A stretch of 61,396 bases of DNA, counting the filler, from Hausera hauseri (lineage: Eukaryota), in the NCBI GenBank assembly GCA_046269625.1. It is 12 parts of 12 records of this genome, joined end to end, with 100 filler letters (N's around TTAATTAATTAA, not from the genome) between each part and the next. Parts side by side here need not be neighbours in the genome. Positions count along the whole stretch, not along the records: positions 9,987 to 14,252 come from JBJURY010668219.1; 11 more parts are not named here. One strand, written 5' to 3'. The stretch's first letter is position 1. Each line of letters starts with the position of its first letter. The notes under the pieces are model-generated. The model did no database searches. It saw only the letters and a program-made list of their open reading frames with translations, and was not told the DNA's origin. Shown here one piece after another: positions 1,462 through 44,180 of this stretch. A program made the position numbers and the translations under genes.

Positions 1462-2285
<824 letters not shown>

Positions 2286-2918: not shown

Positions 2919-4948
2919 CTATTCAGTCGTAGTACGGGTTAGTCGTTGTGTGCCATCAAAGAACTTTTTTCCTCTGTACGTATTGAACGTTACTCTGAAT
3001 GGCTTACTTGATAGATTTGTACTGGGTTGTTGAGCAATGTTTTGTGATGGAAATGGTAACGAAGATGAGTCCAGCAAAAAAGTTGATGTAATTGGAGGTG
3101 ATGAAAAATCATTTAGAAAATCGGTATAAGTGATGGCTGAGTTTGAATTGGATGTAGAATTGGTATCTGGAGTGTCGTCAATGAAGAAAGCTTGCTTCAG
3201 ATTCGAAATGTGGACGTTATAAGGTTTATCTTGGCGTAAGATTGTTGCCGTGTGAAATGAGAGATTCAGCAGTTTGTACGGGCCAACATATTGGGGTCTA
3301 AAATCTGACGGAGATTGATCCTTTAACCAAACAAACTTGGCAGAGTACAAATCCTTAGGAATGTAGGATTTGTTGCTGTTGAAAAGGCGACAGAATGAAT
3401 CTGCGCTGACCTTGACGAAATGAGTCTGTGCTGCACGAATGTTCTCATCTGTGGAATGGTCGTCGAGATCAGAAAGTTCAAACAAGGCTCGAATTGGAGT
3501 CCCAAAGAGTGCTTCGACTGGAGCACAACCTGTAGTGGTTGAAGGTGTGTTGCGCCATCCTAATAGAACAAAAGGTGGAATGGACGTCCAATTGCGATGA
3601 GCGTCAGCCAAGATTTTAAAGAGACTTTTATTGCACGATGGAACCTTTCAAGAAGGCCGTTTGCTTGAGGATAATATGGAGTAGTATAAAAATGGAATAT
3701 ATCCAAGCGTTTAACAAGTGATTTGAAAAGCTCAGACTTAAATTGTGGACCTTGATCCGTTATTATGTAGCGTGGGGAACCAAAACGACTAATACAGATT
3801 TTGATAAAAGCGTCGGCTACTGAGTCAGTGTTTGTGGAATGAAGAAAAACGGCTTCAGGCCAACGAGAAGCACGATACATTATATTAAGTATGTGTTGAT
3901 ACCCGTTATCGGCAGGTAAAGGACCAACTAAATCAATATGAACTGTATGAAAGCGTGATGTACAGGGAAAGTGGTTAAGTGGTGGTTCAATGTGTTTGTT
4001 GATCTTGTATTTTTGACAGGCTATGCATTCTTTAACACAGTCCTGTACATCTTTGCGCATTGATGGTCATACTACATAACGTTGAAGCAGGCGAAATGTT
4101 GCTTTTGAACCTGCATGATGGAGTGAATGCGTATGAACAAAGGCTAGCTTTTGTAAAGGTGGTGCTAGGATGACCCTTTTTAATGCGTGTATTAGATGTA
4201 TCAAAAGCTATTCCATCAGTGATCTCGTAGGATTTGAAAGAACTATGGAGATCTGTGGATGGTTGATTGGTCTTTAAGACTTCAGATGAGAAAATCGGTT
4301 CAACTGTAATAGATCCAACCGACCTCGATAGAAAATCAGCTACCAAGTTATCTGTGCCTGAGATATATTCCAAAGCAAAACCGAACGTAGAAAGGTATGA
4401 AATATGTATCTTTTGCCTCGGTGATGGCTCTTTTAATATGATGTGCAGCAGAGGTTTGTGATCAATTTGAATGGCGAACAGACGAGAGAGAAGTAAGTGT
4501 TTGAAGAGTTTTAATGCCAGAACTATGGCAAGTAACTCGCAATCAAATGTGAAGTAACGGCTCTAAGGTTGTGTTAGTTTCCTAGAATAAAATTCTAATG
4601 GCTCGTCGACACCATTAGAGATCTAGTGAAGTACAGTGCCAGTGGCTCTGGTTGAGGCATCGGTTGTAAGAATAAGATCTGCTTGGCTTTAGGATAAGCC
4701 AGTATTTCTACGATTTTAAGACCTTCGCGCAAATGACCAAACTTGGTTACCAGATCAGGAGTCCAGTAGATCAACTGCCTCTTTTTTCCTGAAGATAAAT
4801 GTGCGAAAGGAGCTGTGAGCTCAGAGCAATGAGGCGCGTATTTGTGGATGAAGTGGAGTGTGCCTAAAAAGCTTCTCATGTCAGTGGTAGTTGTTGGTAG
4901 AGTTATGTTCTTTAATTGTTGTAGTCGATCCGGTTGTGGAGAGTGGCC
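2919..4948 (-). mobile_element. Ty3/gypsy pol fragment (RT C-terminus, RNase H, integrase with GPY/F motif), frameshifted
   Basis: RSFLGTLHF, FYSRKL, ISGTDNLVADFLSR, CIACQKYK, VHIDLVGPLP, ITDQGPQF, YYPQANGLLERFH, PQYVGPYK. Confidence 0.95.
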
Positions 4949-8575: not shown

Positions 8576-10176
8576 TCAATCCTCAAAATTTACTTCGTAA
8601 ATGACAATAATTTATTATTTAATTAGTGAAGGGAATAATACATTTTTATATCAAATCGTTTTTGAAAGTAGTTGTACGTAATCCTACTTAACTGTTAGTC
8701 GGTAATTGTGGTTAAGAAGTCTATGAAGTTAATCAACTTTACTTACTACGGTTTAGTATCCTATGTCTTTAGTTAGGTAATTAAACGGGCGGTCGTTAGG
8801 TAGAGTTAGACCTAGACGACCAAATACCAAGTTAATTAGTGTTTATTTATTTACTTTCTTTACTTAATATAGAACAAACAATATCTAAAAATTTTATAAT
8901 TGATATTGAAATGCAATAAACAAATGAAAATTTTAACATACACGCAAAAATACAAAAAGTGACTTACAAGATGACATAGTAGACCATAAACAACAAAAGA
9001 TAATGTCTGATTCTAGTGATAAAATACACAGCTTATATACTTGACAAATGTACAAACATAAATGTCTATAATAGGACATTACGTTCAAATTAGGGTAGAA
9101 TCACTAAAATATATCCATAACACACACAGTTAATTTCTCTGTCATTTATTATAATCACTAGAAATTCTCTGTCCTTCCATCATGAACAAAATCTAATTTT
9201 ACATCTATATTTACGGATCATAATTCCAGATCCTTAACACATATCTTAAATTCCAGTGTGCTTTAAAGAACGCCTCACTTCTTCAATGCATCTCAGTATG
9301 TTTTTCAGGTGTAATAACAATAAATTACCGTTGAGACTGGCTCAAAGAGGGCTATACTGTGACATAATTCATTAGTATTTGTGGACTTCAGTGTTGCGTT
9401 AAACACCATTACCCCAGCTCTCCCTGTTGAACGTGTCAAACTCTTTGTTACTCTCCCTTCTGGCGATAAAAATTACACATTACATTAATGTAAGGACATT
9501 ATGCGTTACACCGACGCAATTTTGGAATTATGTCAAAAGAGCACTGAATAATGTTCATTTGCACAAAACGTTCTCCATCTACAAGAACATTTCATTTTCG
9601 TTAAGCGTATTTAGTCAATATACTCTTGCTTTTTAAATTTTATTTATTTATCTTATTAATGCAAGTTATTTTACTTAGTTGTTATTATTTCTGTTTTTTC
9701 ACTCCTGGGATGTGTTAAACTTAGGACTACAAAGCGCTGCAAAACGGACCACAAAGTACACACTTAGCACCACAAAGTACTCACCCCCAGGCGGCAGTTG
9801 TCCGGTCACCTCTGAGGACGTCGTAAAAGTAGAGGTCGTTTAGGAGGCGGTGGCTCTCCTGGTCGGCCTCCGTGGCAGAAGGGGCGNNNNNNNNNNNNNN
9901 NNNNNNNNNNNNNNNNNNNNNNNNNNNNNNTTAATTAATTAANNNNNNNNNNNNNNNNNNNNNNNNNNNNNNNNNNNNNNNNNNNNACTCGACGGGATGA
10001 CGCAGGTCGAACCACATGTGGCCCATCGGCGTTGCCATCGATGGTGTCGGTTTTGTTTTAATTACAACAATTAAAACGATACGTAAATAAAAGATTCGAT
10101 AAACTGGGACAGAAAGATAAAAATCATGCACCCATATCACCGAATCATCATATACTTACCGTCATTGTTTATACTA

Positions 10177-10516
10177 TCATGTTATTGCAGATCCAATCAG
10201 TCCACCCAGTAATGACGTGACAATCAGTAGAATTGCACCAAGGAATCCGCCATCTTTCTGGTACATGACCTCTCGTTTCAGTCGTTTACTACGGGAGTTG
10301 GCAAGGCCAATAAGCCGTTTTCGATACTTTAGTAAATTCCGCATTCCACAACCAATGTCAACGTGACCCACAACGATACTGTATAAAATTTCCATCAAAT
10401 CGTTTACTACAAATTGTGGGAATGATCGTAGCATGTTTTGCTTATGTCTCGTAGGTGCTTTGAGCAAAGCAATAAAGTACAGCAAACTACGTTTGAATCG
10501 AATTTTTTGGACGCAT
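10177..10516 (-). CDS. Polinton/adintovirus pX-like small protein with GG|FL protease site and C-terminal amphipathic helix
   Basis: ...KRLKREVMYQKDGGFLGAILLIVTSLLGGLIGSAIT; lies downstream of the packaging ATPase; 5' end frameshifted. Confidence 0.7.
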
Positions 10517-10540
10517 TGATGCTAATGAGACGTAGTTGTT

Positions 10541-10713
10541 TATAACCGTTGCGACTGTGACGGTAATTTGCGTCTAGCTGCTGCTGTTGTTGTTTGACGA
10601 AGCACAGAATTGATTAATCGCTTTACTGTAGCGGTTCGTTTTGATATACGTTTCTTGCCGAGCACCAGCTTGGAAGGTTTTCGTTTAACAATTGTTTTTC
10701 ATAAATTCCTCAT
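10541..10713 (-). pseudogene. Small Lys/Arg-rich putative virion core protein
   Basis: MRNL*KTIVKRKPSKLVLGKKRISKRTATVKR...; a homolog MKNFRKTFVERKPTKQVPKKKR follows the second ATPase copy (57972-58053). Confidence 0.5.
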
Positions 10714-10723
10714 TTTGTCACAA

Positions 10724-11386
10724 TCATATAGTCGGTTTTTGAATTTGTTTATAGACACATACAAAACCTTTCTGATTGAAAATGTCTGTTCGTACACTCA
10801 CGTCATCGGGACACTGCTGTGTAAAGTCAATGAACAAGTATCCGTGTGGCTCGGTTGTAGCATCATGATATGCATCTATTAAGTAGGCTCGATTGTGAGT
10901 AAATGCTTGTCGTGCAACATAATCAATGATAGTCTGATCACGGGGATTTTTGAACAGCATCAAATAGTGTACGTTTAGATTTCATGTTCGATGATGTCCA
11001 CCCTGATGGAACATGTTTTGCGTAGTGATAATAACCGTCACACCACAGTGCCGTGCAATCTTCGTGAACAGGTTGTTGAAGTCCGATTGTTTCGTCGTCT
11101 CTTGAAATAAATCGTCAATGACAATAACGTCACCGTTGCGCAATCTCTCTGAACAGATCTCACCAAATTCATCAATTACCGTTATCGATGATTTCAGTTT
11201 ACAAAATTCCTGATGTGTCAAACCGGACTAACCATAATCACCAACACCCTGATGCCAGTATATGTGATTGTACCGCGGTGAATGGGACATGTCACGGTAG
11301 TTCTGCAATAGTCTACACACAAAATGTGTTTTGCCACTTTCACTGGGGCCTACAATCTGGAAAATGGCATCATTCTGCAGCTTCAT
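10724..11386 (-). pseudogene. Polinton-type A32/FtsK-like DNA packaging ATPase
   Basis: One frame: MKLQNDAIFQIVGPSESGKT (Walker A)...VIVIDD (Walker B)...ARHCGVTVIITTQN...LFKNPRD...PHGYLFID, with two in-frame stops (11228-11230 and 10982-10984). Confidence 0.92.
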
Positions 11387-11478
11387 CTAATAATAATAAT
11401 GCAGCTTTTCCTCAACAAATGATTGGTTTATAATCGTGTTACACGAATATAAATAGCTACAGTATAAACACTGTTTTC

Positions 11479-11940
11479 ATAATTTTAGCTAATATCAACT
11501 ATCGCGGATATGTTACCGAGTGTAACATTAACACACTACCTTTTAATCAATGGAAACCGATGCAGCATGTCCTAAAGTGTCCACCGGATTTTACATGCAT
11601 CATATTTCAATCGGGAAAGTGTCGTGTTATGGGCTGACGCAAACCAATCACAGCTGAAAGCAGTAAGAGTAAACTACTACCAATCGGAATTGTCCTTGAC
11701 AAAATCCAATCAATAACGGTAACGACTCAGTTAGACTACCAAACAATCAATCTTTACAAATTAGCAATGACCGCTACTGAATGTACATATGAACCCAAAC
11801 TGTTTCTTGCACTGAGACTGACACCGTTTCGTCCGCTTTTTGTCAATGTGTTCAGCACTGGAATAATTGTTTTACTCGGTATTCGGACAGTGGACTATGA
11901 ACCAATTATTAATCAAATTAAAAACTACATAAATGTTTAG
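11479..11940 (+). pseudogene. TATA-binding-protein (TBP)-fold protein, element-encoded (not in ORF track)
   Basis: ILANINYRG...TCIIFQSGKCRVMG*RKP...IQSITVT...INLYKLA...YEPKLFLAL...VNVFSTGIIVLLG shows both TBP repeats (IFxSGK; YEPELFP; IFxSGKxVxxG). The start is ATA and there is one TGA at 11635-11637. Confidence 0.8.
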
Positions 11941-12283
11941 TGAACCAAAATAACATACTCTGCATACAAAAACAAACTATAAATACCATTCCCATGCTCA
12001 TTAAGACATTACTACCATGAAAGACGAATACGAAACTGTTTGATTTTATCGGTCGCGAAATGTCTCATGTACCCGATGATGATGGTAGTTTAAAGTGTCG
12101 AATGAATATTAAACTGCAAGGATACAAGGAAAAAGTCGGTATCAAAAGCCCGATTTAGCGTGTAGCAGAAGCACATTTTAATTATCAATAGATTTTGTTG
12201 TTTTACCGTTCTTCTTCTTCTTCTTCTTCTTTTATTAACCCAATTAGCAAGTAATGCAATTTTAAAAAATAGGCATAAGAATA

Positions 12284-12754
12284 ATGATTATGAATTATGT
12301 AAAGATTATCTTAACAGACAAAAATGCCTTTGTACCCAGACGTGTTACAGCAAACAGTGCAGGCTACGATGTGCTTTCCAATGCCATTGTGACAATTCCG
12401 AACAGCAAAATCAAATGCATAACGACTGAGACTCGATTGGCGATTCCGCCCGGTTACTACGGCCAACTTTTATCGAAAAGCGGATTGGCAAAGCTCGGAG
12501 TGACAGTTGTGGGCGGCGTCATTGATTCAGACTTTCGTGGTGAAATTAAGGTGTTGCTTGAAAACCAATCCGTGGAACTGTATGCTTTTTCGAAAGGCAA
12601 TGCAATCGCACAAATCGTTTTTCTTCGCTGTGAAGAGGTGGAATTCAGTGTAATGTCACCGAAACAATGGGGATTCTTTTGTGTCAATGAATCAACACGA
12701 AATGAACGCAAAGTATTTGGTTTTGGTGATATGGACAAAACCACCTATGTTTAA
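12284..12754 (+). CDS. dut: Trimeric dUTPase
   Basis: Motifs AGYDV, KSGLA, GVIDSDFRGEI, IAQIV and a degenerate motif 5; ORF is open. Confidence 0.93.
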   Translation: MIMNYVKIILTDKNAFVPRRVTANSAGYDVLSNAIVTIPNSKIKCITTETRLAIPPGYYGQLLSKSGLAKLGVTVVGGVIDSDFRGEIKVLLENQSVELYAFSKGNAIAQIVFLRCEEVEFSVMSPKQWGFFCVNESTRNERKVFGFGDMDKTTYV

Positions 12755-12809
12755 TAATTGTGATAATAATAATAATAGTTAGTTATTTTGTTTATATTAC
12801 AAACAAAAA

Positions 12810-13319
12810 ATGACTTTGTACGAGATAAGTAATGGGACAGGATTTATAGATATTGAAGCTTTCCAAGGTGATAATGCCTGGTACATAATAATGGAATTAT
12901 GCATTATGGACGTCGGTAACATTTTCAAACCGCTTGTGTACGTATTTAAGCCCGCCGTTACGTGGAATCATTTGACAGAAAAGGGGAAAATTACCAATGG
13001 ATATCTCATACGATGTCGTCATTGACTTTATTGGAACGAAGGCAATTCAACGTTTTGCGTATCATGTATCCTGCGAGACATTTGTGATCATTTTGACATT
13101 GAAAATACAATATTTTACATTAAAGATCAAATTGACGTACAAAAGTTTACACAACTTCATTCACAGTTTCCCGAGTTGCAAATGAAGACGTATTCAACAT
13201 CGAACAGCTCGCTAACGATGGTACCTGACAATATTATATGTCCGTATCGTTATCATAGACCGAATTGTGTTTACAAAAATTGTCTACGGCTTTGAATTGA
13301 CTATATTTCATCCAAGTAA
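12810..13319 (+). pseudogene. DEDD/DnaQ-like nuclease-family protein of Polinton-like elements
   Basis: FIDIEAFQ...IIMELCI...FKP..W..L...TN.YL...H*LYWNEG...CPYRYHRPNC; two in-frame TGA. Confidence 0.6.
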
Positions 13320-13434
13320 ATAAATGTTTTTCTCTGTTTCTTTTTTTCTTTCCATAAATAACGTCCGCCATATTGGTCAGTTGAATAATTCAAAACTATA
13401 AATATGAGTAGTTATAGTAATAACAATCATCATC

Positions 13435-27055: not shown

Positions 27056-27149
27056 AAAGCGTGGGATTAAAGAATAACAATATTAATAATCAATTACTTC
27101 ATATTGAGTCGTAGTAATATTGCAAGAGTGATGCATAAGATTTATTTAT

Positions 27150-27835
27150 TTATGCAATGACGGTTCCGTTTTTCGTTATTTCAACCTCTGCATCAAATAC
27201 ACTGTAAATATACATCACGGTAGACTGTTCCAACACGGGTAAAGTGAACCTCCAATCGCAGGTTTCCCTTTTAAGGTAATTGAACCTGCTCAACGTCATA
27301 GTCAGGAGCAAGGACAAATGTGAAGAATGGATAGGTGGACTTGAACAAATCCATCGATATGCCATTGTTGATGGTTTTGTTGAGCATACCCATGTTGCGC
27401 ACGATGGATTGCATATGTGCAAACATAATCACTAGACTCAAAGTTTTGTTTGTACGTCTTAACGAAATCCGCATTCCCACCGAAACTGATGTAATTTATA
27501 TTGCTATGTGTAAACGTTTCCGAATTGCTCGTATAACTTCCCGTTTGTTGAACAGTCGTTTGAAATGTAACGAGCACGAATTTCGGCAATCGCATGTCGC
27601 CAAACAGTGCATCTTTGTAAAACGTTGAACCTTTGGGTATGGTGTAAAAGACGAATTCTGTGCGTTTTAATGGGTAACATGCATTTGGTGATTCCAAGCT
27701 TAATCGATGTCCCTTGAGCACAGATGGTTCTACCTTTACACAACGTACGTATAATCGTGCCTCAGTAATTTTCAGTATGGGTTTGAGAATTGCAACGGCG
27801 GTTTTCAAACAAAAGACATTGTCGCTGCGTTTGAG
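27150..27835 (-). pseudogene. Polinton major capsid protein (double jelly-roll), C-terminal half
   Basis: LKITEARLYVRCVKV...YPLKR...LPKFVLV...YPFFTFVLAPD...GNLRLEVHF...YSVFDAEVEI. Confidence 0.85.
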
Positions 27836-28803
27836 CCGATGTAGATGCCACAGGTAGGTACATTGGATTATCGAGCTTGACAGTGACATTGTCGCCGGCA
27901 GTATACCTGCTGCTTTCCAGATAAATTGCGCGGAGTAGCGGTACAGGTATTCCACCGACCAAAATCGGTTCGGTGACGTTCACGTAAATGTACATTTGTC
28001 TTAGACCAGTTTTCAGTTTGGGTTTAAGTGTTGCAACACGTGCCGCCGCCGCAGCTGTCGATGCCTCAAACCGCTGTTTTCCAAAACCTAATACTATGGC
28101 CAAAGATTTGTCCAGTGAAATGTCGACAATTTCCTTAGCCAGTTCAAATTTAATGTACCCATTTGCATCTGACTCGAAAACTTTAAATATCTCCTTGTAC
28201 TTTTGATTTGAAGAAAAGTGTTGACAGATATGTGCTACACATTCGCAATAGACATTGTCTCCAATCGATACATATGACATTGACACCCTTTCCGTTGTAT
28301 AGGTAAATTTCACCGTTGTCTGGTAATATACGGGACTTAATCTTGGACCAACTGCATATTCACTTTTAATGTGTACCTTTGTACTCTGTAATTTTGTATG
28401 AAAATTTCTGCACCATCTCAGAGGACGGAAAGGTAACAGTAAATTCAAAATCTGTCATAAAATGTAAGTTTCGATCTAAAATAATAACACCGATTTTGCC
28501 GTGTGAACCATAATTTGCTTCTCTCATTCAAATGGCCAATTCCCCAACCGTTATTTTATTGTTTGTAAGTGTCAGAGGACAAAAATATGTTTTGGTTTTA
28601 GTAATACTTTTGTTGTACGTTATTTTCATATTACCTTTCAATGCCACCGGTGCGTAGGGAAAGTTAAATTCCGTCAGTGCAACCGCCCATTGTCCAGCAG
28701 ATAAATCCAAAGGATTTTTCCAATCTACAACGTATTCACTGGCGGAATTTTTCGGTCGAGTTGTTGGACAATTGTTGCTCGGCAACACCATGTGAATACT
28801 CAT
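27836..28803 (-). pseudogene. Polinton minor capsid (penton) protein 1
   Basis: MVLPSNN...PKNSASEY...PLDL..QWAVALTEF; C-terminal MYIYVNVTEPILVGGIPVPLLRAI...PMYLPV. Confidence 0.85.
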
Positions 28804-29205: not shown

Positions 29206-29590
29206 ATTCTTATAGTGAATCGTATTTGCTTTCGAGCACACCCGGTCACATGTGCTAATCATCAATATTGGATGTATCCGAAAACCGATATTATAGATTT
29301 TTGCACACTTTCACATGTGCTGCGCACCTGCACTGTGCACCAATTGATGAGCACTAATGTGCAGTATCGATTAGCATTTGGTCCCAATCGATTCGACCAA
29401 TTGTTCAATGTTCAGCTATCAATTTGTGAAATGTGCAAAAAAATGCTGAGCAACGTGCTTAACGGTATCTAACGTTGCCTAGCAAATTTCCGATCGATAT
29501 GCTCCATGTGCGCCATCGATTGGCACTTGTGCAAATTTATTTATCGATTCGCACACCCCCGTCGGGGTGGTGCAGACTTCCCATTTTCTA
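29206..29590. repeat. Palindrome-rich 'common region', copy 1 (3' end with GC hairpin)
   Basis: Aligns by eye to 34330-34705 and 43850-44180; CACCCC..GGGGTG hairpin followed by CAGACTTCCCATTTT. Confidence 0.85.
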
Positions 29591-31299
29591 CCTACTTTCT
29601 GCAACCTCACCAAACGTAGGGGTGCTAACCCTTGGTTTAAAATCGCCAAGTTTTCCTTGAGGCACATGCCTAAACCTCTCATTTTCTCTGGAGGTTTGCT
29701 CTATTTTCTCCAACTCCTTCTCTACTTCTTCTATTTCTAAAACTTTTATCCCTACTTTGCCATCGTCAATCCTTTTATAGCTTTACCTTCCTTTTCAAAT
29801 TGTAATTTCCTTCTTTTAAATGGTGCTTCATTTACTTCCATATCAATGTCTACTTCTTGCTCTTTTACCCCCTGCGTAATATCCCAATCCATCGAGATCC
29901 TTTCATTGGCCCAACTTATTGACCATATTTTCTATAGATCTCTCTTCCTTGACTTTTACAAACTTATAATCTTCTTGTGGAACCCATTCCTGTGGTGCTC
30001 ATTTTTGCCCCATAAAATTGGTATATAGTATGTTTTACTTAAATACACAAACAAATGTAAATGAAAAAAATTTTATGCATCGTTTTCAATTCGTTTAATA
30101 ATTACATGCCGATTGAATTTTTTTATATACTGATTTATTCAGTTTTGTTATCCAATGTAACATTTCAGAAATCGTTTGGTGTTACTATTTTAGAAATTAC
30201 GTTCAGGCTAAAGTTAATGATATGTTACTTATTCAAGTCAATCCGTACAAATTAAATTTTTACCATTTTGTTAATTTTGATCTCGAGATATTACTGAAAC
30301 GAATTTGTCGGATTTAATTTTATGGAATATACTACAATGACCTTTTCGCTTCCTAATACTCAATCAGTATTACAGATGTCTCAAAATCTACCGAATTCTG
30401 ATGAAAAAAATTACAGATGTGAACGTTTTTCGTTGGGTCCAAATAATGCATACGATGATAAAATATTTCTCGTATCAAAACCAACCAACCAATCCACAAT
30501 TACGTACTTCCGTGCGATTAAATTATTCGAAAAATATGCAACCCTTCTCAATTCCACTTTAGGCTTCGTATTAAATTTTTCAAACAGCTCATAGCCAACT
30601 TGGAGCACTTGCCACACTGTAATTTGATGATCTTCCCATTTTCCTTTTGTGTTTTCTCATCTTTGCTGGAAAGGGAACATTTTGACTTAAATCTGACTTA
30701 CATCTAATACATCCGAAACAAACGATACTATTACCTTTAAAAAATTTCCTACATAAATATAAACCACTATCGTTCTTTGCTATTCTACATTTTCCTGCAC
30801 TTTTAACCTAATTTTAAGTTGTACTTCTACTACTTTTATCAACAATTCCCTTACACAGGATATTTACCATCTTTCTTTTACTTCTACTATCTGATCGGGA
30901 AACCGTAGTTCCCTAATCTTAATAAACATTCTAACTAAGAAATGCCAAAATTGGGCACTTCCATCTTTCAACTTATTAGGAATACTAACCGGTGAAATAA
31001 AGTTCATCTCTCAACAACAATCAAGGCTATACAATGAAAGACTGCTTTGAGTAACTGCTATAAAATTACGTTACAATATATAGATTGTGTTTTTGAAATT
31101 TTTTAAATTTCAGATTGTAACATAATTATATTTTGTATTAGTCAGGTTGTTTTACGTTATGAATTACTAAATAAATTTGTTTCAATAAATACATTTGTGG
31201 GTTTCCTTCAAATTCAAATAACCTATCCGGATACTATTGCATTTTATCTATAATTGAATTTAACAGGCTGCTGCTTTCCGCTAAGCAATGTATGCTGTC

Positions 31300-34014: not shown

Positions 34015-34705
34015 GCACTGCACAGTACATAACAATCTGCATCTTGATGTTCGCTATCTATCTTCACTTAACACCGGTCATTTCCATCAATCCTACGCTA
34101 CACAATGACCAAAATGTTAAAAGTGAAAAAGTGCCTTGGCAACCGTATCCAAGAACACACCTGATTCGCGTATTGCACTGATCGATAGTACACGAAGTAC
34201 TGCACCTTCCAGTATATATACCATATTAATATTATTGATTTTCAATTTATAGCGGAAAGGCCTATGGGAAGTCTGGCCCAGTTGGCAGTTATTCGAAAAC
34301 CAATCAATATATTTAAATTCTAACTGCACTACACACAGTGCATCATGTATGCTACCGATTGCACCCGGTGCCATGCCCCATTAATGAATATTGGTAATAT
34401 CGGAAATCCGATATTATTGATTTTTGCACACTTGTAAATGTTCTGCACACCTACACTGTGCACCAATCGATGCGCACTGATGTGCACTATCGATTAGCAC
34501 TTTGTCCCGATCAATTTGATCAATTCTGCACTGTGCAGCGATCGATTTGTGAAAAGTGCAAAAGTGCCCTTAGTAACCGTGCCTAGGGGCTCCGTCACCT
34601 AGCACTCTTCGGATCGATAGTGCTTCGTGTACAATATCGATTGGCACTATCGATTTATCGCCGCGTGCACCCTGCCCCCCAGGCGGTGGGCCAGAATCCC
34701 CATTT
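34015..34705. repeat. Common region copy 2 (3' part with hairpin)
   Basis: Shared blocks AAAAGTGAAAAAG, GCGGAAAGGCCTATG, TTTAAATTCTAACTGCAC, CGGAAATCCGATATTATTGATTTTTGCACAC and CAGAATCCCCATTTT. Confidence 0.9.
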
Positions 34706-35117
34706 TTACACTACTTCCTTCTGATAATTTGCATACATGATACCTGTATTCTGTCCTTCTGATCTCAACTGCATCTTTTAGATTGGTGGTTTTCGGGCAT
34801 TTCAGAAATCTGATCTGATACCCCATGAAATTTTGGACGGCTTTAAATTGATCCATCCTAAGTGCCTTTACTGTCCTTTTTGGCTGTGTCAGCAATTCAT
34901 CATCTTCGAACATCTTGATAAATTCGGCACATTCTTTATCAATTGCATCTAATGGTTTTGCGCTGATCTTCTTAATTTCTTCTTTTTTGGTACTGGAACT
35001 ACTGGTGGTGGCATTCGTGCAGCGTCTTCAAATGATTTAATAAATCCAACAATTATTTCATCATTAATATCCTCCATTCTTTTTTCAGGTTGAGTGAAAT
35101 ACTGGGAGTCCGTCATT
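34700..35117 (-). pseudogene. Hypothetical protein with basic NLS-like patch, frameshifted
   Basis: MTDSQYFTQPEKRMEDINDEII...PVPKKKKLRR, continued in another frame by MFEDDELLTQPKR... Confidence 0.4.
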
Positions 35118-35344
35118 TCACTGGAGCAGGAAACATCATTGCAATAAGATATTTTGAATAAATGAAAATTATAAGGGCGTCAATACACAATGTCTTGAAA
35201 ATTTTAAAATTCAAATTTGAATTTGAATTTTTGCGATATTCTAGAACATTCTAGAATATTCTGGAACATGCAAAAAATATTTCTGTTTTACTGCATCAAT
35301 TTATTTTACAAATCTAATGCGTTGTTTAACACACGCTTTAAACT

Positions 35345-35842
35345 ATGCCATTTAAGTGCTGAGCAATATTAATTACAAGGGCTTCACTACAGCTCCGTTA
35401 GATGGACTTCTATTCCAAAATAGATCTACACAATGTGCTTTACGATACCCAGAATTTACAATTATACTCTTTTTCAGCGGAAAATGTAGAATAATGAGCT
35501 GCAAACAACCTATCAATCTGTGCAGTTTACCCTTCAATATCAAAATTCAATCAACACAATCAATTAGAGTGATGTGTGATTTTTTTGAGCCGATAAATCT
35601 CAATCTATTGGCAATGAACAGTCCATCTATTTACGAACTTGAATTGTTTCCTGTACTTAGACTAACTTGTTATAATCCTATGTGTAAATGTGTTTCAAAC
35701 CGGAAAAATTGTTATTACCGGCTTGAAATTTTTCAATTATAGTGATTTTGTTATTAGGGCTTTAGGCAATATATTATTATCGACTTATGTCTCTTTTCGT
35801 AAAGCAACATGCGTGTATACAACTTTATTAACACAACAATAA
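35345..35842 (+). pseudogene. Second TBP-fold protein, frameshifted
   Basis: LSNINYKG...FTIILFFSGKCRIMSCKQPI...QSIRV...INLNLLA...YELELFPVLRL, then after a frameshift VNVFQTGKIVITGLK; collinear with 11479-11940. Confidence 0.82.
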
Positions 35843-35871
35843 TAATCTGTCATTATACCACCTCTACGTGA

Positions 35872-36123
35872 TCAATACTGAATATCAACCCCCTCTTCTT
35901 TGTCAATAATAGCGATTTCAGTTTCATCATCACCGTGCACACTGTGTTTGCAATCTTCGCAACATTCTTCAGACAATTCAGTATCTTCAGTTTGATTAGA
36001 TGCATCTACGTATTCATTTTATCCACCAAGGTCGCATTGAACACATGAATATTCTGAAACATCTTCGTAGGACGCATCATATTCTTTGTTCATATCAATT
36101 ACTAGATTATTAATAAAGTCCAT
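35872..36123 (-). pseudogene. Small acidic Cys-containing hypothetical protein
   Basis: MDFINNLVIDMNKEYDASYEDVSEYSCVQC...ELSEECCEDC...; one internal stop; TATATAAA about 100 bp upstream. Confidence 0.4.
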
Positions 36124-36289
36124 TATGCAAGTCATATTCTACATTTAGCACTTGTATATACACCCCAAGTAACACACTTTGTTTTAATGCACTAATTATA
36201 TACCGGCACCAAATTCAATTTATATATAGGTTTTCATTCATGGGAATCGAACGACGTCATTAGATTCTTCGAATAATTTACGCTTGATC

Positions 36290-37351
36290 AAGTATTCGAG
36301 TTCGAATAGCTAATTATTCGACTGTTAAGCTCGAATTCGAATATCTAACATCATATTCCGATTTAACATATATCACTTGCTATCCCCATACGCTCTCAAA
36401 TTTATCGATTCCCGCTTCACTGAGCTTTAAACGCACATTTTGCTTAATTAAAATATTGATTTTATATCTATATAATACATTTTCATGGAATAATTTTAAT
36501 GCATAAGGAGGTTTTCATAAATGATGAATCGATTGCCTTTGTTAGATTTTTTGAAAAGTTCAAAGTTCGATTTTCTAACTCGAAAATATTCGAATTTCGA
36601 ACCTCTGACTTGAGATTCGAGATCACCATAGTCGACATTCTATCTACTCCCGCTAATTATATTATGGAATTTTGAGTCATAGAAGCAAATAAAATCTATG
36701 GGCATTCGCCACAAGTTACACTTCCGATCGATTTTATTCGAAAACTAATTGATAAATTTAAATTCTAACTGCACATTTATACTCTGCACCATGTTTCTGT
36801 TCCAATGCACCCGGCCACATGTCCTAACCATCAATATTAGAAATTTCCGAAAATATTTATTGTTAATTTTTACACACTTGCGCACGTGTTTTTGCACATC
36901 ACAATATACAATAAGGTGCATCTCAACATGCTCTATCTACCTGTACTTGACCCTGATCGATTGCATCAATCCTGCGCTGCACACCACCAAATATGTTAAA
37001 AGTGAAAAGATGACTTACCAACCGTAACGAAAAGAACACTTGATTCGACTATTTTATTAACCGATAGTGCATCCAGTTCTCTACCTACTAGTATATGTCC
37101 AATATTGATATTATGGATTTTCATTTTATAGCGGAAAGGCCTATGTACCTTCGCCCTCAGTTGACGTTTTATCAAAAACCAATAAATAAATTTAAATTCT
37201 AACTGCACATTCACAGACTGCGTCATATGTGCTATCGATTTCACCCGCTACCGGGTTCATATCATCAATAGTGATATTATCGGAAATCCGATATTATTGA
37301 TTTTTGCACACTTGAACATATGTTTTCGCACTGCACAGTACATAACAATCT
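36290..37351. repeat. Common region copy 3 (TCGA-rich block + ~430-bp TGCAC-rich subunits)
   Basis: Collinear with 42945-43980; TTTAAATTCTAACTGCAC at about 36757 and 37191. Confidence 0.9.
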
Positions 37352-37961
37352 CCATGTTTTTCATTGCAACAAGTGCTCTTGCTTCTTCTGTACCTTAGCT
37401 TTACCTACACAGCATCTATACTATTCACAAGTAAACATCCTTGCAAATATTACTAATGTCTGTGTGAAACGTTTTTTAACCTTAGTAAAAGGCCTTGTTC
37501 TCAATCACCAAGACAGTATAACAGAGCATCCTGGTATCAGCTGGAGATAAGGATGGAGGATAATTGTGACTGCAATATACAAAGTGATCTCAGCCGTGTT
37601 ATTTCTTTACAGCTGATGCAGCAGGTACCCAAAGCATTCCAGTTGATTGACTGATTGGCCCTTTTTTGTCCTCTCAGGCAGTTTGAGATGAAGAAAATTG
37701 CCCAGATAAACAGCTTCTTTCATGACTAAGTCAATCAATGTTTGATCTACAACTCCTGTTACAGTCAAAGCATGCTACATTTCTGTTATTCTATTCTGCA
37801 TCTTTGTGTCTTTATGCTTTGCTCTCCAGTTTATCAAATAATGTAGCATCAAACATTGTAATTCCTTTGTGCAGAGATAACTTCCATGATTTAAAGCATT
37901 GGGAGATGTTGTCTTTTGTGCACAAATCTCCCATCCCAGAACCAAGTTTACCAACAATGTG

Positions 37962-38060
37962 TTTACTTACTTACTTATCCCTACGACCCCTTTGTGGAGC
38001 ATAGGTCGTCTACAAGAGCTCTCCAACCTTTCCTGTCCTGGGCCTTTCTTTCTATTTGGT
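37962..38060 (-). mobile_element. RTE-clade LINE 3' end with (TAAG)n tail
   Basis: QIERKAQDRKGWRALVDDLCSTKGS* followed by GATAAGTAAGTAAGTAA. Confidence 0.8.
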
Positions 38061-38160: not shown

Positions 38161-41100
38161 TACATATTACCGACCCTTCCATTGACAGCATAATACAAAA
38201 GTACTTCAATGAGCATGCTATCGGAACTCAAAACCCATCGGATTTCCTTAAAATTGCATTTTCTCAGCTGAGTTCCTTAGGCGTCACTCCAATAAACAAT
38301 GCCGGTCTTCTTCGTAGGTATTTTCTTTCTTCTTTACCCACCTCTATCAGAGCGTTGCTAACTGTAGTGGACCATTCAACGGCACTCGAGAAACTCGCCT
38401 TACTGGCAGTCAGAAGTTTCGACCTCTTGCAATCAAATGGTTCACAACCAGTAGCTGCAGCAACCACTCACACACCATCACACACAGATAACATTTTATT
38501 TTTGCAACAACTGCAAATGATGCAGAAACAGTTCGACACCCTCCAATAGGCAATTTCTGCGATTACAGCACAACTCAGTGATTTATCTGTGCCTCGAAGA
38601 ATTGAAAACCGTGTTTCGCGCAATTGTGGCCTTTCAAGGAATTCTTTTCGATCCAGATCTTGAGATGGGAGAATAATTTGCTTTTATCATAACAAATTCC
38701 ACAGAGACGCAATAAAGTGTCTTTTGGGCTGTCGATTTTACGACTAACGTTATGCAGTAGACAGCCCAATCTGCATTTATCACACAAAGTATAAGTCCTA
38801 GGCTAGATCGCGGGTGTCAGGATGCAAATATTATAAAAAGCATTCTAGTTTTTCTCCATCTTCTTCGCTTCCTGCTCTCATCATTTCTATTCTTTTTCCC
38901 AACAAACCTCAAAAAACTAACAACGCCGCCACGGCACATTCTGGTATAGGCAATACCGCTGAATCGTCTGGCCGTCTCAACACCGCCTCGGCAGTTTTTT
39001 TGATAAAAGCTGCATTGCTCCCTGATAATGCCTCACACATAGACTTCCTTATCGATTCAGGAGCTGCATTTTCACTTCTTCCTTTGTCATTCGCTCCTAC
39101 ATCTAACACAGCTTTCTCTCCTCCACTCTAACTGCCTGTGGTTAACCCTTGAACATTGTAGGTACCACAAAATTTTCCTTCACATTCTCCAACCTACCAG
39201 GGAAATTCTTTCGGAAATTTCATATAGCGAATATTAGATCGCCCATAATAGGCTCCGATTTCCTGGCTGCATACGATTTGTTCGTCGACTATAAGCATAG
39301 ATGTCTCCTGCGCAGAAACTCCGTTGCAAACACCAACAAATGTTCACCAGACGACCAGTCATACACCTTGTCCTTCTCTGTTTACTCAATTGTCAATTTG
39401 ACATGCTGTTCATCGACTGATAAGAATAAGCTTAATAATTTATCCATATTTTCAATTGCATCAAGTGGCAACAAATCAATCTTGAAACAATCGGTTGAAT
39501 CGAATGTCGTTAATGAAGTGTTCAGTCATTCTACATCAGTTACAGTTACTGACTTTTCCAATAATATGCCCTCAACATTCTTTTAGTTGGAATCCAATCT
39601 CAAATCCCACATCAAAACTTTTTGTTTCCGCACTCTCAAGAAGGACATCAGTTTCAAGCCGCATTCTACAACTTATCACCACATAGTCACCAAACACCAA
39701 AGACCTATCAGACAAAAGGTCAGACCACTGTCACCTAGTAGACGAAAAGCCATTGAATCAGATTTCAATGAACTCGAAAAGGCTGGCATTATTCGAAGAT
39801 CCAAATCACCATGGGTTTCACCTTTGCATGTAGTGACAAAGAAAGATGGCACTTACAGACCATGTGGTAACTATCGGCAATTAAACAACTTAACAGCCCT
39901 GGATGCTTACCCTTTACCTCTCATAAAGGATATCCTGCACAGACTTACCAACACTAATACGTACTCCACAACTGACTTGCATAAAGCTTATCGTCAAATT
40001 CCGGTTGCACCTGATGATATTCCAAAAACTGCTGTTATTACTCCATTTGGCCTCTATGAATATATTTTTATGTAATTAGGTTTACGTAGTGCTTCCCAAA
40101 CTTTTCAACGACACATTGATACCGTCCTCGCAGGCCTTGACTTTACTCATCCATACATTGACGACATATTAGTTGTCTCCACATCTGTTAAACAGCATCA
40201 AGAACACCTCCGTATTATCTTTCATAGACTACATCACAGCAATTTGCAAGTCAATTTCTCTAAATGTATTTTTTTCAAAAACGTGTTAATTTTCTAGGCC
40301 ACGTGATCACTCCTAACGGCCACTGTCCACAACCGGATCGACTACAACAATTGAAAAACGTAATGCTACCAACGACCACGACAAATATCAGGAGTTTCAT
40401 AGGCACACTACACTTCATCCACAAATACGTACCGCATTGTTCTGAGATCAGAGCACCTTTCGCACATCTATCTTCAGGGAAAAAGAGACAGTTAATCCAC
40501 TGGACTCCTGATTTAGTCAAAAAATTCGATCACTTACGCGAAGGCCTCAAAGCCGTAGAAATACAGGCCTATCCGAAGACCAAGGCAGATCTTATACTTA
40601 CAACCGATGTCTCAACGACAGATACCGGTGCAGGACTATACCAGATTTCCAACGGTGTTGAGGAACCATTAGATTTTTATTCTAGGAAGCTTACACAACC
40701 CGAAAGCCGTTATTTAACATTTGACCGTGAATTACTCTCCATAGTTCTGGCAGTAAAACATTTCAAACACCTACTTCTTCCTCGTCCATTAGTTATTCAA
40801 ACTGACCACAAGCCACTTCTGCACATCTTGTCGTTAAAACAACCATCGCCGAGGCAAGAGCGACATATATCGTACCTGTCTACATTCAGTTTTGTTTTGG
40901 AATACATCTCAGGCACAGATAATTTGGTAGCAGATTTTCTATCGAGGTCGTTTGGCTCCATTACAGTTGAGCCGATTTTCTTATTCGAAGTTTTAAAGGC
41001 AAATCTACCTTCTGCTGACTTCCTTAGTTCCTTCAAATCTTTCGAGATCATTGATGGCATTGCTTTTGATACTTCGAATACCGGTAATAAAATGATCATT

Positions 41101-41985
41101 CTAACTCCACCTTTACAAAAGTTAGCTTTCTTCATACGCATTCAATCCATCATCCGGGTTCGAAAGCAACCTATCTCCTGCTTCAACGTCATGTAGTTTG
41201 GCCATCAATGCGCAAAGATGTACAGGGCTGGGTTAAAAAATGAGCTGCCTGTCAAAAATACAAAATCAACAAACATCTTAAACCGCCACTTTACCATTTC
41301 CCATGTCCATCACGCTTTCATACAGTTCATCTTGATTTCGTTGGCCCTTTACCTTCGGACAACGGATATTAATGTATCCTTACAATGATGGATCGTGATT
41401 CTCGCTGGCCTCAAGTCGTTCCTCTTCGTTCAACGAACACTAGTTCAGTAGCCGACGCCTTTATTAAAATCTGGATCAGTCGTTTTGGTTCCCCACGTTA
41501 TATAATAACGGATCAGGGTCCCAATTTGAATCGAAACTTTTAAAATAGCTTGTAAAGCACTTCGGGATATCCCATTTCCATAAAACTCCATATTATCCTC
41601 AAGCAAATGGCCTGCTTGAAAGGTTCCATCCAACAGCAAAAGATTCTTTAAAAATCTTAGCTGACACTCATCATAATTAGATGTCCATTCTACCATTTGT
41701 TCTACTAGGTTGGCGCAACACACCCTCTAGCACTACCGGTTGTGCTCCAGCCGAAGCACTCTTTGCGACTCCAATTCGGGCCTTATTTGAACTTTCTGAT
41801 CTCAACGACAACCTCACAGAGGAAAACATTCGTGCAGCACAATCTCACTTCGCCGAGGTCAGCTCAGATTCATTCTGTCGTCTCTTTAACAACAACAAAT
41901 TCTACATTCCGAAGGATTTATACTCCGCCAAGATTGTGTGACTGAAGGATCAATCACTTCGGGTTTTAGACCCCAATATATTGGC
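38161..41985 (+). mobile_element. Near-complete internal region of the same CsRn1-like gypsy family (gag-PR-RT-RH-INT), degraded
   Basis: Collinear with 15765-17915 and 3280-4948; IDSGA, YIDDILV, TDHKPL, NLVADFLSR, TDQG. Confidence 0.95.
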
Positions 41986-42340: not shown

Positions 42341-42944
42341 NNNNNNNNNNNNNNNNNNNNNNNNNNNNNNNNNNNNNNNNNNNNTTAATTAATTAANNNN
42401 NNNNNNNNNNNNNNNNNNNNNNNNNNNNNNNNNNNNNNNNAATAAAGTATTCGATTGAATTTGTGGCCATAATAGATCCTCATGGTATTGTGGCAGGTTT
42501 CTGGCTCATGTATTGGAACCATACATTCTTGGTATAATTTGCACATCTAAAAACAAAATTATTTAACGACAACAAATACGAAAAGACTTATCATTCTGGA
42601 AAGTGATTTGCGGAACTGAATTTGGAAATAATGAAAAATATAGCTATGTCAGCACGCACTGTCTAATTTTGAGAATTGATGCGGTAAAACACACATATGC
42701 AAAATAATTTTGACGTATTAAAATACATGAAATAATGGTGGGGTAAATTCGGCAATGAATATTGTATAGCCAATGTGCATTTGTTTCAATGCATCAAATG
42801 CATGAATTTGTCACGTACCATTTTCTTGGTTTAGTTTTGCTGCATCAAGTATTTTAAATTATCGCGCACGCCATTTCCGAATATGTTATCGTACATGACG
42901 AATCGATTGGCAACATCATATTCTTTGAATAATGCACACATATT

Positions 42945-44180
42945 CGAATATTCGAGTTCGAATAGCTGATTATTCAAGTTTGAATATTCTTTTTGATCAT
43001 CTAACTTTTTATTTCGATGCAGCACATGCGACTTCCAATCCAGCTCCGCTATTAGATTTAACGATTTCCGCTTCATTGAACTTTGAATTCACATGATGCT
43101 TAATTCAAAATATTGATTTGGTATCTATATAGTACATTTTCATGACATAAATTTTATGCACATGGGGATTTTCCAATATAAGGAATCGATTTCCATCATC
43201 AGATTTTTCGAATAGTTCGAACTTTGATTTTCGATTTCGAAAATCCTCGAATATCGAACTATCAACTCGATATTCGAGTTCGGCATACTCGATTTCCTAT
43301 CTATCTCCGTTCAATGTTTGGTCAAATTTTGCTTTCTTACGCTTAAATAACACTGAAAAAATAACCATTTTGCACTTTCAATCGATATTAATTAATAACT
43401 AATCAATAAATTTAAATTCTAACTGCACGTTCATATATTACACCGTGTTTGTGTTCAAATGCACTCTGTGCCGAGTGCTAATCATCCATATTGGAAATAT
43501 CGGAAATTCGACATTATTGATTTTTGCACACATGTTTTTGCACTGCACACCATAGATAAGGTGCATTTCGATGTGCTCTATCTAACTACACTTGATCCCG
43601 TTCAATTTCATCAATTCTAAGCTGCACAGTTGCAAAAGTGCGTAAAGTGAAAAAGTGCTCCTGTACACCGATCAATAATCACAGCACACTCGATTTGTGC
43701 ACTGATTGAAAGTGTATCGTCTATTGCACGCGCCTGTATATGTGTCATTTTGATATCTTTGATTTAAGATTTATACCGGAAAGGCCTATGGCGGTTTGGC
43801 CGCACTTGCGGATTATTTGAAAAACAATCAATCGTTTTAAATTCTAACTGCACATTCATATACAGCATCAAATGCACTACCGATTGCACCCGGTCCCGAA
43901 TTCTAATGATCGATTTTTGAAATCTCGAAAATCCAATATTATTGATTTTTGACACTTGCACATGTGCTGCACACTTGCCCTGTGCACCAGTCGATGCATC
44001 TCAATGTGCTCTATCGATTAGAACTTTGTACCGATCGATTCGATGAACAGTGCATTGTGCAGCGATTGATATGTTAAAAGTGCAAAATGTGCATAGCAAT
44101 GGCGCTATATCAATCGGCAAATGTGCAAAATTGATTTATCGATTACCCCTCCCTCCGGGGTGGGCAGAATCGCCATTTTA
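42945..44180. repeat. Common region copy 4 (most complete), directly upstream of pPolB
   Basis: TCGA-rich block, two TTTAAATTCTAACTGCAC subunits (~43410 and ~43836), ACCCC..GGGGT hairpin, CAGAATCGCCATTTT. Confidence 0.9.

What the first reader, a model, noticed from the sequence alone, without database searches (positions are those of the whole stretch)
11479..11940. Polinton-like virus encodes its own minimal TBP-fold protein (two divergent copies)
Seen: a ~150-aa frame, absent from the ORF track, with both TBP pseudo-repeats. It sits head-to-head with the packaging ATPase. A collinear homolog at 35345-35842 conserves NINY.G, F.SGKCR.M, QSI.V, INL..LA, YE..LF..LRL and VNVF.TG.IV..G despite heavy nucleotide divergence, which implies past selection. 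Established: TBP homologs occur in giant DNA viruses (NCLDVs) but are not part of the Polinton/adintovirus core gene set. Inference: this lineage may have redirected host Pol II to viral TATA promoters with a private TBP lacking the N-terminal extension.
Basis: partly seen in the sequence, partly recalled or inferred. Interest (0 to 1): 0.9.

Follow-up and report, generated by a model that had tools for sequence, protein, structure and literature searches.

The report
Polinton TBP with matching late-promoter box
A family of virus-like Polinton elements carries its own shrunken TATA-binding protein with a rebuilt DNA-reading surface, and its capsid and packaging genes share a TATAAAC-type promoter box, which suggests, without proving it, a one-protein switch for late viral genes.

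Summary
Confirmed, with corrections. 11479-11940 is a broken TBP-family gene: Pfam PF00352 E 3.9e-11; its model matches TBP at Z 13.5. It faces a broken A32-type packaging ATPase. The window is 12 contigs joined by linkers, so the second copy (35356-35785) lies on another contig and belongs to another sub-lineage. They are not two copies in one virus.

Relatives are mostly open-frame genes under purifying selection. They lie in Polinton elements with pPolB, integrase, protease and a double jelly-roll capsid, and form one clade apart from the cellular TBPs sampled. The family keeps three of four intercalating phenylalanines and the TFIIB-side glutamates, shortens repeat 1 and fixes polar residues on the DNA face.

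[CT]ATAAAC precedes 51 of 59 virion-module genes, 0 of 36 related TBP genes and 0 of 21 genes in five partial Polinton-type loci with no TBP hit. Best reading (inferred): an early-made viral TBP switches on late genes with host Pol II.

A 2021 figure legend lists TBP in MELD viruses. This scan noted the gene twice before on other DNA, once with the box.

The parts
11479..11940 (+). TBP-family gene, copy 1 (decayed: one internal stop at 11635-11637, no in-frame ATG)
   Evidence: Pfam PF00352 E 3.9e-11; model and fold searches; breaks
11448..11454 (+). TATAAAT, ordinary TATA-like box 34 nt before the start region of copy 1 (putative early promoter)
   Evidence: sequence; relatives have TATAWA[ATG] in 21 of 36 TBP upstream regions
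11463..11469 (+). TATAAAC 19 nt before the start region of copy 1: an exception to the pattern; too close for a usual TATA position; chance or an autoregulatory site
   Evidence: 0 of 36 related TBP genes have it
11426..11432 (-). TATAAAC box 46 nt before the ATPase ATG; overlaps a CCAAT (11422-11426) by one base
10736..11386 (-). A32-type packaging ATPase, decayed (stops at 11228-11230 and 10982-10984)
   Evidence: tblastn 62%, E 4e-88 to L019 ATPase; family member L010 hits Pox_A32; stops
10747..10753 (-). TATAAAC box 40 nt before a short basic frame starting at 10713
10538..10544 (-). TATAAAC box before the C3 gene
10180..10521 (-). Conserved small virion-module gene (cluster C3; follows the ATPase in relatives; no Pfam hit; the label 'PW-like' is recalled)
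   Evidence: 46% to L013, E 2e-32
10167..10173 (-). TATAAAC box 38 nt before an MG-starting frame at 10135, where relatives have cluster C20 (homology not detected here)
12266..12754 (+). dUTPase
   Evidence: Pfam PF00692 E 5.4e-23
12810..13316 (+). Decayed homolog of cluster C5, shared with TBP-bearing Polintons ('DEDD exonuclease-like' is a recalled label; no Pfam hit)
   Evidence: 38% to L026, E 2e-29
13573..13920 (+). RING finger gene
   Evidence: Pfam PF13920 E 5.9e-06
35356..35842 (+). TBP-family gene, copy 2, on a separate contig (decayed: stop at 35353-35355, frameshift near 35680; homology runs to 35785)
   Evidence: Pfam E 6.1e-05; tblastn to L025 E 2e-38 in two frames; tree
34650..35027 (-). 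Homolog of cluster C1, the commonest neighbour of the TBP gene (20 of 53 loci), head-to-head with copy 2; no family found
   Evidence: 35% to L028, E 3e-10

Best explanation
Both stretches are decayed copies of a real gene of a Polinton (Maverick/adintovirus) lineage: a ~150-aa TBP. Shown: the fold, the linkage to Polinton genes, purifying selection, a fixed rebuilt DNA face, and two promoter classes in the same elements. Inferred mechanism: the TBP gene and other accessory genes are transcribed first by the host machinery from ordinary TATA promoters. The viral TBP then binds [CT]ATAAAC boxes, mostly 30-45 nt before the ATG of the ATPase, capsid, PLA2-like and neighbouring genes. It bends the DNA with the three kept phenylalanines, reads the final C (and the C allowed at position 1) with its polar residues, and recruits host TFIIB and Pol II through the kept acidic stirrup. 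The shortened helices of repeat 1 would remove surfaces that host regulators use. The result is an early-to-late switch made of one small protein.
For: TBP fold. 53 related loci: 26 of 53 carry a Polinton hallmark gene, 11 of 14 among those of 5 kb or more, and 51 of 53 carry a hallmark or a shared accessory gene. Integrase, pPolB, A32 ATPase, adenovirus-type protease and PLA2-like domain by Pfam; double jelly-roll capsid by fold, E 1e-14. dN/dS median 0.21. In 164 family rows against 120 eukaryotic TBP rows (yeast numbers): F116 163, F190 164, F207 164, E186 162, E188 162 kept; V122 to R 163, T124 to M 164, N159 to S 160, L205 to N 164, I194 to R 157; V71 to N 53 of 58, and F99 not kept. Apart from I194 and the glutamates, these are positions that PMC12529657 Table 1 lists as TBP DNA contacts, and the herpesvirus mimic also turns V122, T124, V161 and L205 polar. 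Box: 51 of 59 virion-module genes vs 0 of 36 TBP genes; 13 of 14 vs 0 of 18 lineages; 43 of 44 YATAAA sites at -28 to -50 end in C; kept inside upstream coding sequence in two different frames (11 and 6 of 17); 0 of 21 genes in five loci without a TBP hit. Four consecutive minus-strand frames on the window contig each have the box.
Against: No binding, expression or timing data. The control is small: five partial loci, two near-identical, from other lineages, so the box could be a lineage trait read by another factor; the whole records could not be searched for TBP. Window copy 1 itself has TATAAAC 19 nt before its start region and would score as boxed by the same test. Some non-structural genes are boxed: C5 3 of 6, pPolB 1 of 3, integrase 8 of 9. 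One of the four phenylalanines and one of the two asparagines of TBP are lost, so DNA bending is not assured. Host TBP can bind a TATAAAC variant (PDB 1qn3, title seen; that this is TATAAAC and needs a Hoogsteen pair is recalled).
Confidence: 0.65

Rival explanations
1. The viral TBP is a general booster of the element's transcription (for example one that escapes host TBP inhibitors). The [CT]ATAAAC box is read by host TBP or by another host or viral factor, and the two traits co-occur only because they belong to one lineage.
For: The control loci come from other lineages. Host TBP has been crystallised on a C(-25) TATA variant (1qn3). Neighbours C1 and C13 have no known family and could be regulators.
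Against: The DNA-facing changes are nearly invariant over 164 rows, which points to a specific new target. The TBP gene of relatives avoids the box (0 of 36, where 1.03 is expected by chance; weak on its own) and uses ordinary TATA boxes in 21 of 36. The box holds in both deep TBP clades, whose ATPases are only 36-38% identical.
Confidence: 0.2
2. The protein is a decoy or a non-transcription DNA binder: it sequesters host TFIIB to dampen host transcription, or binds the element's ends for replication or packaging.
For: The TFIIB-side glutamates are kept while F99 and N159 are lost and repeat 1 is shortened. The gene often lies near the ATPase (18 loci).
Against: Three intercalating phenylalanines, P191 and a fixed set of polar DNA-face residues are kept. 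A promoter-position motif co-occurs with the gene.
Confidence: 0.1
3. The window sequences are decayed host TBP/TRF paralogs or retrocopies that only happen to lie near Polinton debris.
For: Both copies are broken. Copy 2 has no hallmark gene on its contig. TRF2/TRF3 were not in the tree.
Against: Relatives are linked to hallmark genes in 26 of 53 loci. The family is one side of a 100/100 branch against cellular TBP; AU p 0.04 against joining animal TBP. 30,991 contigs of one run cover the whole contig, TBP included, as a multicopy family would. Identity to solved TBPs is 18-25%.
Confidence: 0.03

Closest known systems
Cellular TBP (eukaryotic TBP/TRF, archaeal TBP; Pfam PF00352)
   Same: Two-repeat saddle fold (Z 13.5); N69, F116, F190, P191, F207 and the E186/E188 stirrup kept; C-terminal repeat of the same length (span 159-207 is 48 in both).
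   Different: About 150 aa; repeat 1 shortened (span 125-159 median 22 vs 34; helix 1 missing in the short clade); F99 lost; V71, V122, T124, N159, V161, I194 and L205 replaced by a fixed, mostly polar set; separate clade.
Beta/gamma-herpesvirus TBP mimic (KSHV ORF24, EBV BcRF1, HCMV UL87) and its TATT late promoter (PMC6541308, passages; PMC12529657, passages and section 15 with Table 1)
   Same: Works like it on the best reading: a viral TBP with a polar DNA face, a one-base variant of the TATA box before late genes, and host Pol II.
   Different: ORF24 is a 752-aa multidomain protein in a six-protein complex, keeps all four phenylalanines, binds Pol II itself and lacks the TFIIB glutamates. 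The Polinton protein is a bare ~150-aa core that keeps them. The box differs (C at position 7, not T at position 4). Herpesvirus rows are weak in the fold search (BcRF1 E 8e-3).
NCLDV TBP homologs (e.g. Heterosigma akashiwo virus TBP, asfarvirus B263R)
   Same: Virus-encoded TBP fold; these are the top named BFVD hits.
   Different: Named hits are 9-19% identical and 186-515 aa long, and score weaker than cellular TBP. Most NCLDVs pair TBP with their own RNA polymerase (recalled). No RNA polymerase or TFIIB gene appeared among the neighbour clusters scanned. Not included in the tree.
Polintons / Mavericks / adintoviruses, MELD viruses (Starrett et al. 2021, PMC8502044: passages, section 3.4 whole, one supplement searched)
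   Same: pPolB, rve integrase, A32 ATPase, adenovirus-type protease, double jelly-roll capsid and PLA2-like gene in related loci. The Fig. [quoted passage not shown]
   Different: The paper names TBP only in a legend; the figure is not held, so I could not see which virus carries it or whether it is this family. No analysis of the protein or of a promoter box was found in the searches listed in the report.

Membership tests
TBP family (PF00352) | Profile match above the curated cutoff | tested here: met
   43.1 bits vs 22.9 for copy 1; 23.2 for the N-part of copy 2; 63.1 for intact L010
TBP family (PF00352) | Two-repeat saddle fold | tested here: met
   Model pLDDT 94.0; Z 13.5, rmsd 2.5-2.7, 146-147 of 153 aligned
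Canonical cellular TBP | Four intercalating phenylalanines (F99, F116, F190, F207) | tested here: not met
   Three kept in 163-164 of 164 rows; no conserved aromatic at or near F99
Canonical cellular TBP | Hydrophobic DNA face with N69 and N159 | tested here: not met
   N69 kept (52 of 58); N159 is S in 160 of 164; V122 R, T124 M, L205 N
Canonical cellular TBP | Acidic stirrup for TFIIB (E186, E188) | tested here: met
   162 of 164 each; sequence only, binding not tested
Canonical cellular TBP | Groups with eukaryotic or archaeal TBP in a tree | tested here: not met
   Separate side of a 100/100 branch, 37 rows; TRF2/TRF3 and named NCLDV TBPs not sampled
TBP family (PF00352) | Binds and bends a TATA-type box and starts transcription | not testable with these tools
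   Needs binding and reporter assays
Polinton/Maverick/adintovirus | Protein-primed PolB | tested here: met
   L043 PF03175 E 3e-23 on the TBP locus; in the window only on other contigs
Polinton/Maverick/adintovirus | rve integrase | tested here: met
   L010 PF00665 E 1e-12; not on the two window contigs
Polinton/Maverick/adintovirus | A32-type packaging ATPase | tested here: met
   Window 10736-11386, 62% to L019; L010 Pox_A32 E 2e-06
Polinton/Maverick/adintovirus | Double jelly-roll major capsid protein | tested here: met
   L010 model matches PBCV-1, iridovirus and mavirus capsids, E 1e-14 to 1e-12; hhalign 77% to a PF21738 protein
Polinton/Maverick/adintovirus | Adenovirus-type cysteine protease | tested here: met
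   L041 PF00770 E 4e-05; remnant at window 26699-27052
Polinton/Maverick/adintovirus | Minor capsid (penton) protein | tested here: inconclusive
   Cluster C6 is labelled by position and size only; no Pfam or PHROGs hit
Polinton/Maverick/adintovirus | Terminal inverted repeats and target-site duplication | tested here: inconclusive
   None in the 4 longest loci, which are incomplete; window contigs are 4 kb fragments
Herpesvirus vPIC (ORF24/BcRF1/UL87) | Multidomain protein with Pol II-binding N-terminal domain | tested here: not met
   Median length 155 aa, no N-terminal domain; works-like only

The most novel reading that the evidence does not exclude
A widespread lineage of animal-associated Polintons runs a true viral early-to-late transcription cascade with a single 150-aa reprogrammed TBP that reads [CT]ATAAAC and plugs into host TFIIB and Pol II. 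It would be the smallest viral pre-initiation switch, an independent parallel to the herpesvirus TATT system, and a natural TBP with changed sequence specificity.
Probability: 0.55. Interest if true: 0.85.

Novelty: new variant of a known kind. Interest (0 to 1): 0.74.

Why it matters
How Polintons time the expression of their capsid genes, and whether they are real viruses, is an open question. A dedicated TBP with a matching box before virion genes is what a virus with a late phase would need and a mere transposon would not. It gives a direct test (one small protein, one 7-base box) and a sequence marker for late genes. The protein is also a natural experiment on TBP, one of the most conserved proteins known: which helices and DNA contacts can be dropped or made polar while the TFIIB side is kept.

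Tried and rejected
No whole genome is held, so intact copies in the same assembly could not be sought.

IMG/VR gave no TBP relative (0 of 42 stretches), no capsid relative (0 of 59) and three distant ATPases, which I did not use in the control count. A scan for giant-virus TBPs with P0141 failed (0 of 12), so none with a name is in the tree. The records behind the control loci are not held.

dN/dS between the two window copies is saturated. The careful 109-row tree did not finish; only its quick version was seen, and the 37-row careful tree is the one cited. In the fast alignment the columns for positions 69 and 71 were misaligned; I use for these. No RNA holder was listed for the stretch; this is no evidence on expression. 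The capsid cluster had no sequence hit in Pfam or PDB and was identified by fold. C1 and C13 found no family (Atlas scores 0.86 or less).

The paper on TBP bound to TATA variants is not held, so the Hoogsteen point is recalled.

Rejected: two paralogs in one virus (separate contigs, separate sub-clades); head-to-head layout as a family trait (1 of 18).

Full report
1. What is in the window. The window is not one molecule. It is 12 contigs of 4.0-6.8 kb joined by N44-12nt-N44 linkers. Copy 1 lies on contig 9987-14252 and copy 2 on contig 34015-38060. Copy 1 reads as 153 codons in one frame with a stop at codon 53 and no in-frame ATG. It also differs from its relatives at some otherwise conserved positions, as a decaying copy would. 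Read with X at the stop, it matches Pfam TBP (E 3.9e-11). The N-part of copy 2 matches at 6.1e-05, and its last motif lies in another frame. On contig 1 the packaging ATPase runs the other way from 11386 (62% to an intact relative, two stops), 95 nt from the TBP start region. A conserved small gene follows it, and dUTPase, C5 and RING genes lie downstream of TBP. Contig 2 has no hallmark gene, but it has the C1 gene that neighbours TBP in 20 of 53 related loci and repeats shared with a pPolB-bearing contig. In one public run 30,991 contigs (1,657 in a second) lie on contig 1 at 85-100% likeness and cover all 30 bins, which fits a family with very many diverged copies. The host is not known. 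Other contigs carry cadherin, LIM and dynein pieces, which suggests an animal, but the contigs are not physically linked.

2. The fold. A model from a 62-row alignment has pLDDT 94.0 and pTM 0.85. Foldseek gives 44 PDB matches at E 0.001 or less, and all of those listed are TBP. Re-alignment gives Z 13.5, rmsd 2.5-2.7 over 146-147 of 153 residues; the next fold is at Z 6.9. A profile search of PDB sequences found 35 sequences, all TBP or TBP fusions. Viral library hits are weaker, with named giant-virus TBPs at 9-19% identity.

3. The family. A profile finds 47 representatives at E 1e-30 or less and 284 at 1e-10 among 1.84 billion (the tail includes cellular TBP). None of the best 120 hits of a second search has an NCBI or UniRef record; those with a name carry an automatic TBP label. 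In metagenome contigs 53 of 124 candidate stretches encode relatives. Of these 53, 26 carry a Polinton hallmark gene (11 of 14 loci of 5 kb or more), and 51 carry a hallmark or a shared accessory gene. Pfam confirms rve integrase, pPolB, A32 ATPase, adenovirus-type protease and a PLA2-like domain. The ~410-aa gene folds as a double jelly-roll capsid. L010, L020, L042 and L046 hold TBP, ATPase, integrase, capsid and pPolB on one contig. Terminal repeats were not seen in these four incomplete loci. 50 TBP frames are 120 aa or longer; 48 pairs with 0.05 < dS < 1.5 give dN/dS 0.05-0.50, median 0.21 (pairs are not independent). In a 37-row tree the family is one side of a 100/100 branch against 8 eukaryotic and 3 archaeal-type TBPs (the latter labelled by eye) and one unassigned row. 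The AU test against joining it to three animal-type TBPs gives p 0.04, which is marginal with such long branches. The two window copies fall in different sub-clades. TRF2/TRF3 and named giant-virus TBPs were not sampled, so the origin is open.

4. Anatomy. I number by yeast TBP, through a plant-type TBP from the search results (P0088, offset 41, which reproduces the N and F positions in Table 1 of PMC12529657). Kept in 164 family rows: F116 163, F190 164, P191 156, F207 164, E186 162, E188 162. Changed and fixed: V122 to R 163, T124 to M 164, N159 to S 160, V161 to T/S 163, I194 to R 157, L205 to N 164. The 120 eukaryotic rows keep the canonical residue in 117-120 at these positions. N69 is kept in 52 of 58 and V71 is N in 53 of 58. 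No aromatic residue is conserved at or near F99. The second repeat has the normal length; the first is shortened (span 125-159: 22 vs 34), and the short clade, which holds both window copies, lacks helix 1. A Met lies within 6 residues of the first strand motif in 145 of 150 rows that have the motif. So the TFIIB side is conserved and the DNA face is rebuilt. PMC12529657 (passages and section 15) reports that the KSHV mimic ORF24 has polar residues at V122, T124, V161 and L205 but lacks the TFIIB glutamates.

5. Promoters. After dropping near-identical upstream regions, [CT]ATAAAC lies within 100 nt before 13 of 14 ATPase, 8 of 8 capsid, 9 of 10 putative penton, 7 of 8 PLA2-like, 8 of 10 C3, 4 of 5 C17 and 2 of 4 protease genes (51 of 59), and before 8 of 9 integrases; shuffles give under 0.5 per class. 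It lies before 0 of 36 TBP genes (1.03 expected), which have TATAWA[ATG] in 21 and TCAYT in 22. Other classes: C5 3 of 6, pPolB 1 of 3, C1 1 of 14, C13 1 of 8, C7 0 of 7, C22 (leucine-rich repeat) 5 of 5. Of 44 YATAAA sites at -28 to -50 before the module genes and C22, 43 end in C; none of 23 TATA-like sites before TBP does. By lineage (TBP identity 60%), 13 of 14 have most module genes boxed and 0 of 18 have a boxed TBP gene. Where the box lies in the upstream gene's coding sequence it falls in two different frames (11 and 6 of 17), so it is not one conserved peptide. As a control, five IMG/VR loci found by integrase similarity have no TBP hit in the DNA held, and 0 of their 21 module genes have the box; the ATPases of four have ordinary TATA boxes and the fifth an AT-rich stretch that also matches. 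This control is weak: the loci are partial, two are near-identical, several gene labels are provisional, and they are other lineages. On the window contig, four consecutive minus-strand frames each have the box (11432, 10753, 10544, 10173), and TBP has TATAAAT 34 nt before its start region. The contig holds 7 boxes against 2.3 in shuffles (7 of 500 as high).

6. How it most likely works. Shown: a conserved, selected, rebuilt TBP in Polintons, and two promoter classes in the same elements. Inferred (0.65): host machinery transcribes TBP early, and the viral TBP then binds [CT]ATAAAC and recruits host TFIIB and Pol II to virion genes. No RNA polymerase or TFIIB gene appeared among the neighbour clusters scanned, and a candidate GT-AG intron in one TBP gene (L033) fits nuclear host transcription. 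Rivals: a general booster with the box read by something else (0.2), a decoy or end-binding protein (0.1), a host paralog (0.03). In the window both copies are dead.

7. What is known. Starrett et al. 2021 (PMC8502044; passages, section 3.4, one supplement searched with no hit) and its preprint (10.1101/697771; passages) list TBP in figure legends of MELD viruses. The figures are not held, so I cannot tell which virus or family is meant. Ten full-text searches showed no paper that analyses a Polinton TBP or this box; most hits were seen only as listings with abstract openings. Passages read in PMC11131425, PMC12220804 and 10.64898/2026.06.19.733378 do not mention a TBP gene. PMC10675990 mentions it only for mirusvirus-like elements. 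Subscription papers, Repbase entries and preprint supplements were not visible and may bear on novelty. The closest working model is the herpesvirus TBP mimic with its TATT box (PMC6541308, passages; PMC12529657). The scan noted this gene twice before in other genomes; those notes are leads, not support.

8. Verdict. Real. A member of the TBP family but not a canonical cellular TBP, and a gene of a Polinton lineage. A new variant of a known kind (viral TBP-directed late transcription). Interest 0.74: the reduced and rebuilt protein, the matching box and a first control make an open question directly testable, but function is unproven and the gene's presence in MELD viruses was already noted in print.

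Noticed in passing
whole window: The window is 12 contigs joined by identical N44-12nt-N44 linkers; adjacency across linkers means nothing.
   Followed up: yes
L033:376-415: A 40-nt GT...AG stretch splits the TBP gene inside a conserved motif: a candidate spliceosomal intron in a Polinton gene.
   Followed up: partly
L010:1502-2135 and window 34650-35027 (-): Clusters C7 and C1 look like two exons of one gene that neighbours TBP in 20 of 53 loci. No family was found; an OB-fold single-strand DNA binding protein is my guess from recalled motifs, untested.
   Followed up: partly
window 26699-28803 (-): Decayed Polinton putative penton, major capsid and protease genes of the same lineage on another contig; no [CT]ATAAAC box was listed before them.
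   Followed up: partly
window 44626-47819 (+), 51599-53186 (+), 58084-58275 (-): Two decayed pPolB genes and an ATPase remnant of the same Polinton lineage on three other contigs.
   Followed up: no
window 29214-29600, 34015-34567, 36226-37342, 42881-44092: A ~430-nt repeat unit, 67-76% alike, shared by three contigs, including those with TBP copy 2 and pPolB; it seems to encode a repeated Cys-containing peptide.
   Followed up: no
integrase genes in L010-L050: Integrase is boxed in 8 of 9 loci (at -53 to -93), like virion genes, which would fit an integrase made late and packaged (inference).
   Followed up: no
L020:225-719, L005:4008-4316, L029:1918-3327, L042:7136-7993: Accessory genes in TBP-bearing elements: ubiquitin-conjugating enzyme, dual-specificity phosphatase, leucine-rich repeat protein, KilA-N.
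   Followed up: no
window 1710-2285, 3282-4948, 15692-17915, 38161-41985, 14402-15710, 55823-56642, 812-1189: Protein kinase piece, several related retrotransposon fragments (RT, RNase H, integrase), dynein motor, LIM and cadherin pieces on other contigs.
   Followed up: no
P0091, P0110, P0122, P0124, P0127, P0133, P0147, P0148: More distant TBP-like proteins in the profile search, seven of which form a separate group in the quick tree; their genomic context is unknown.
   Followed up: no
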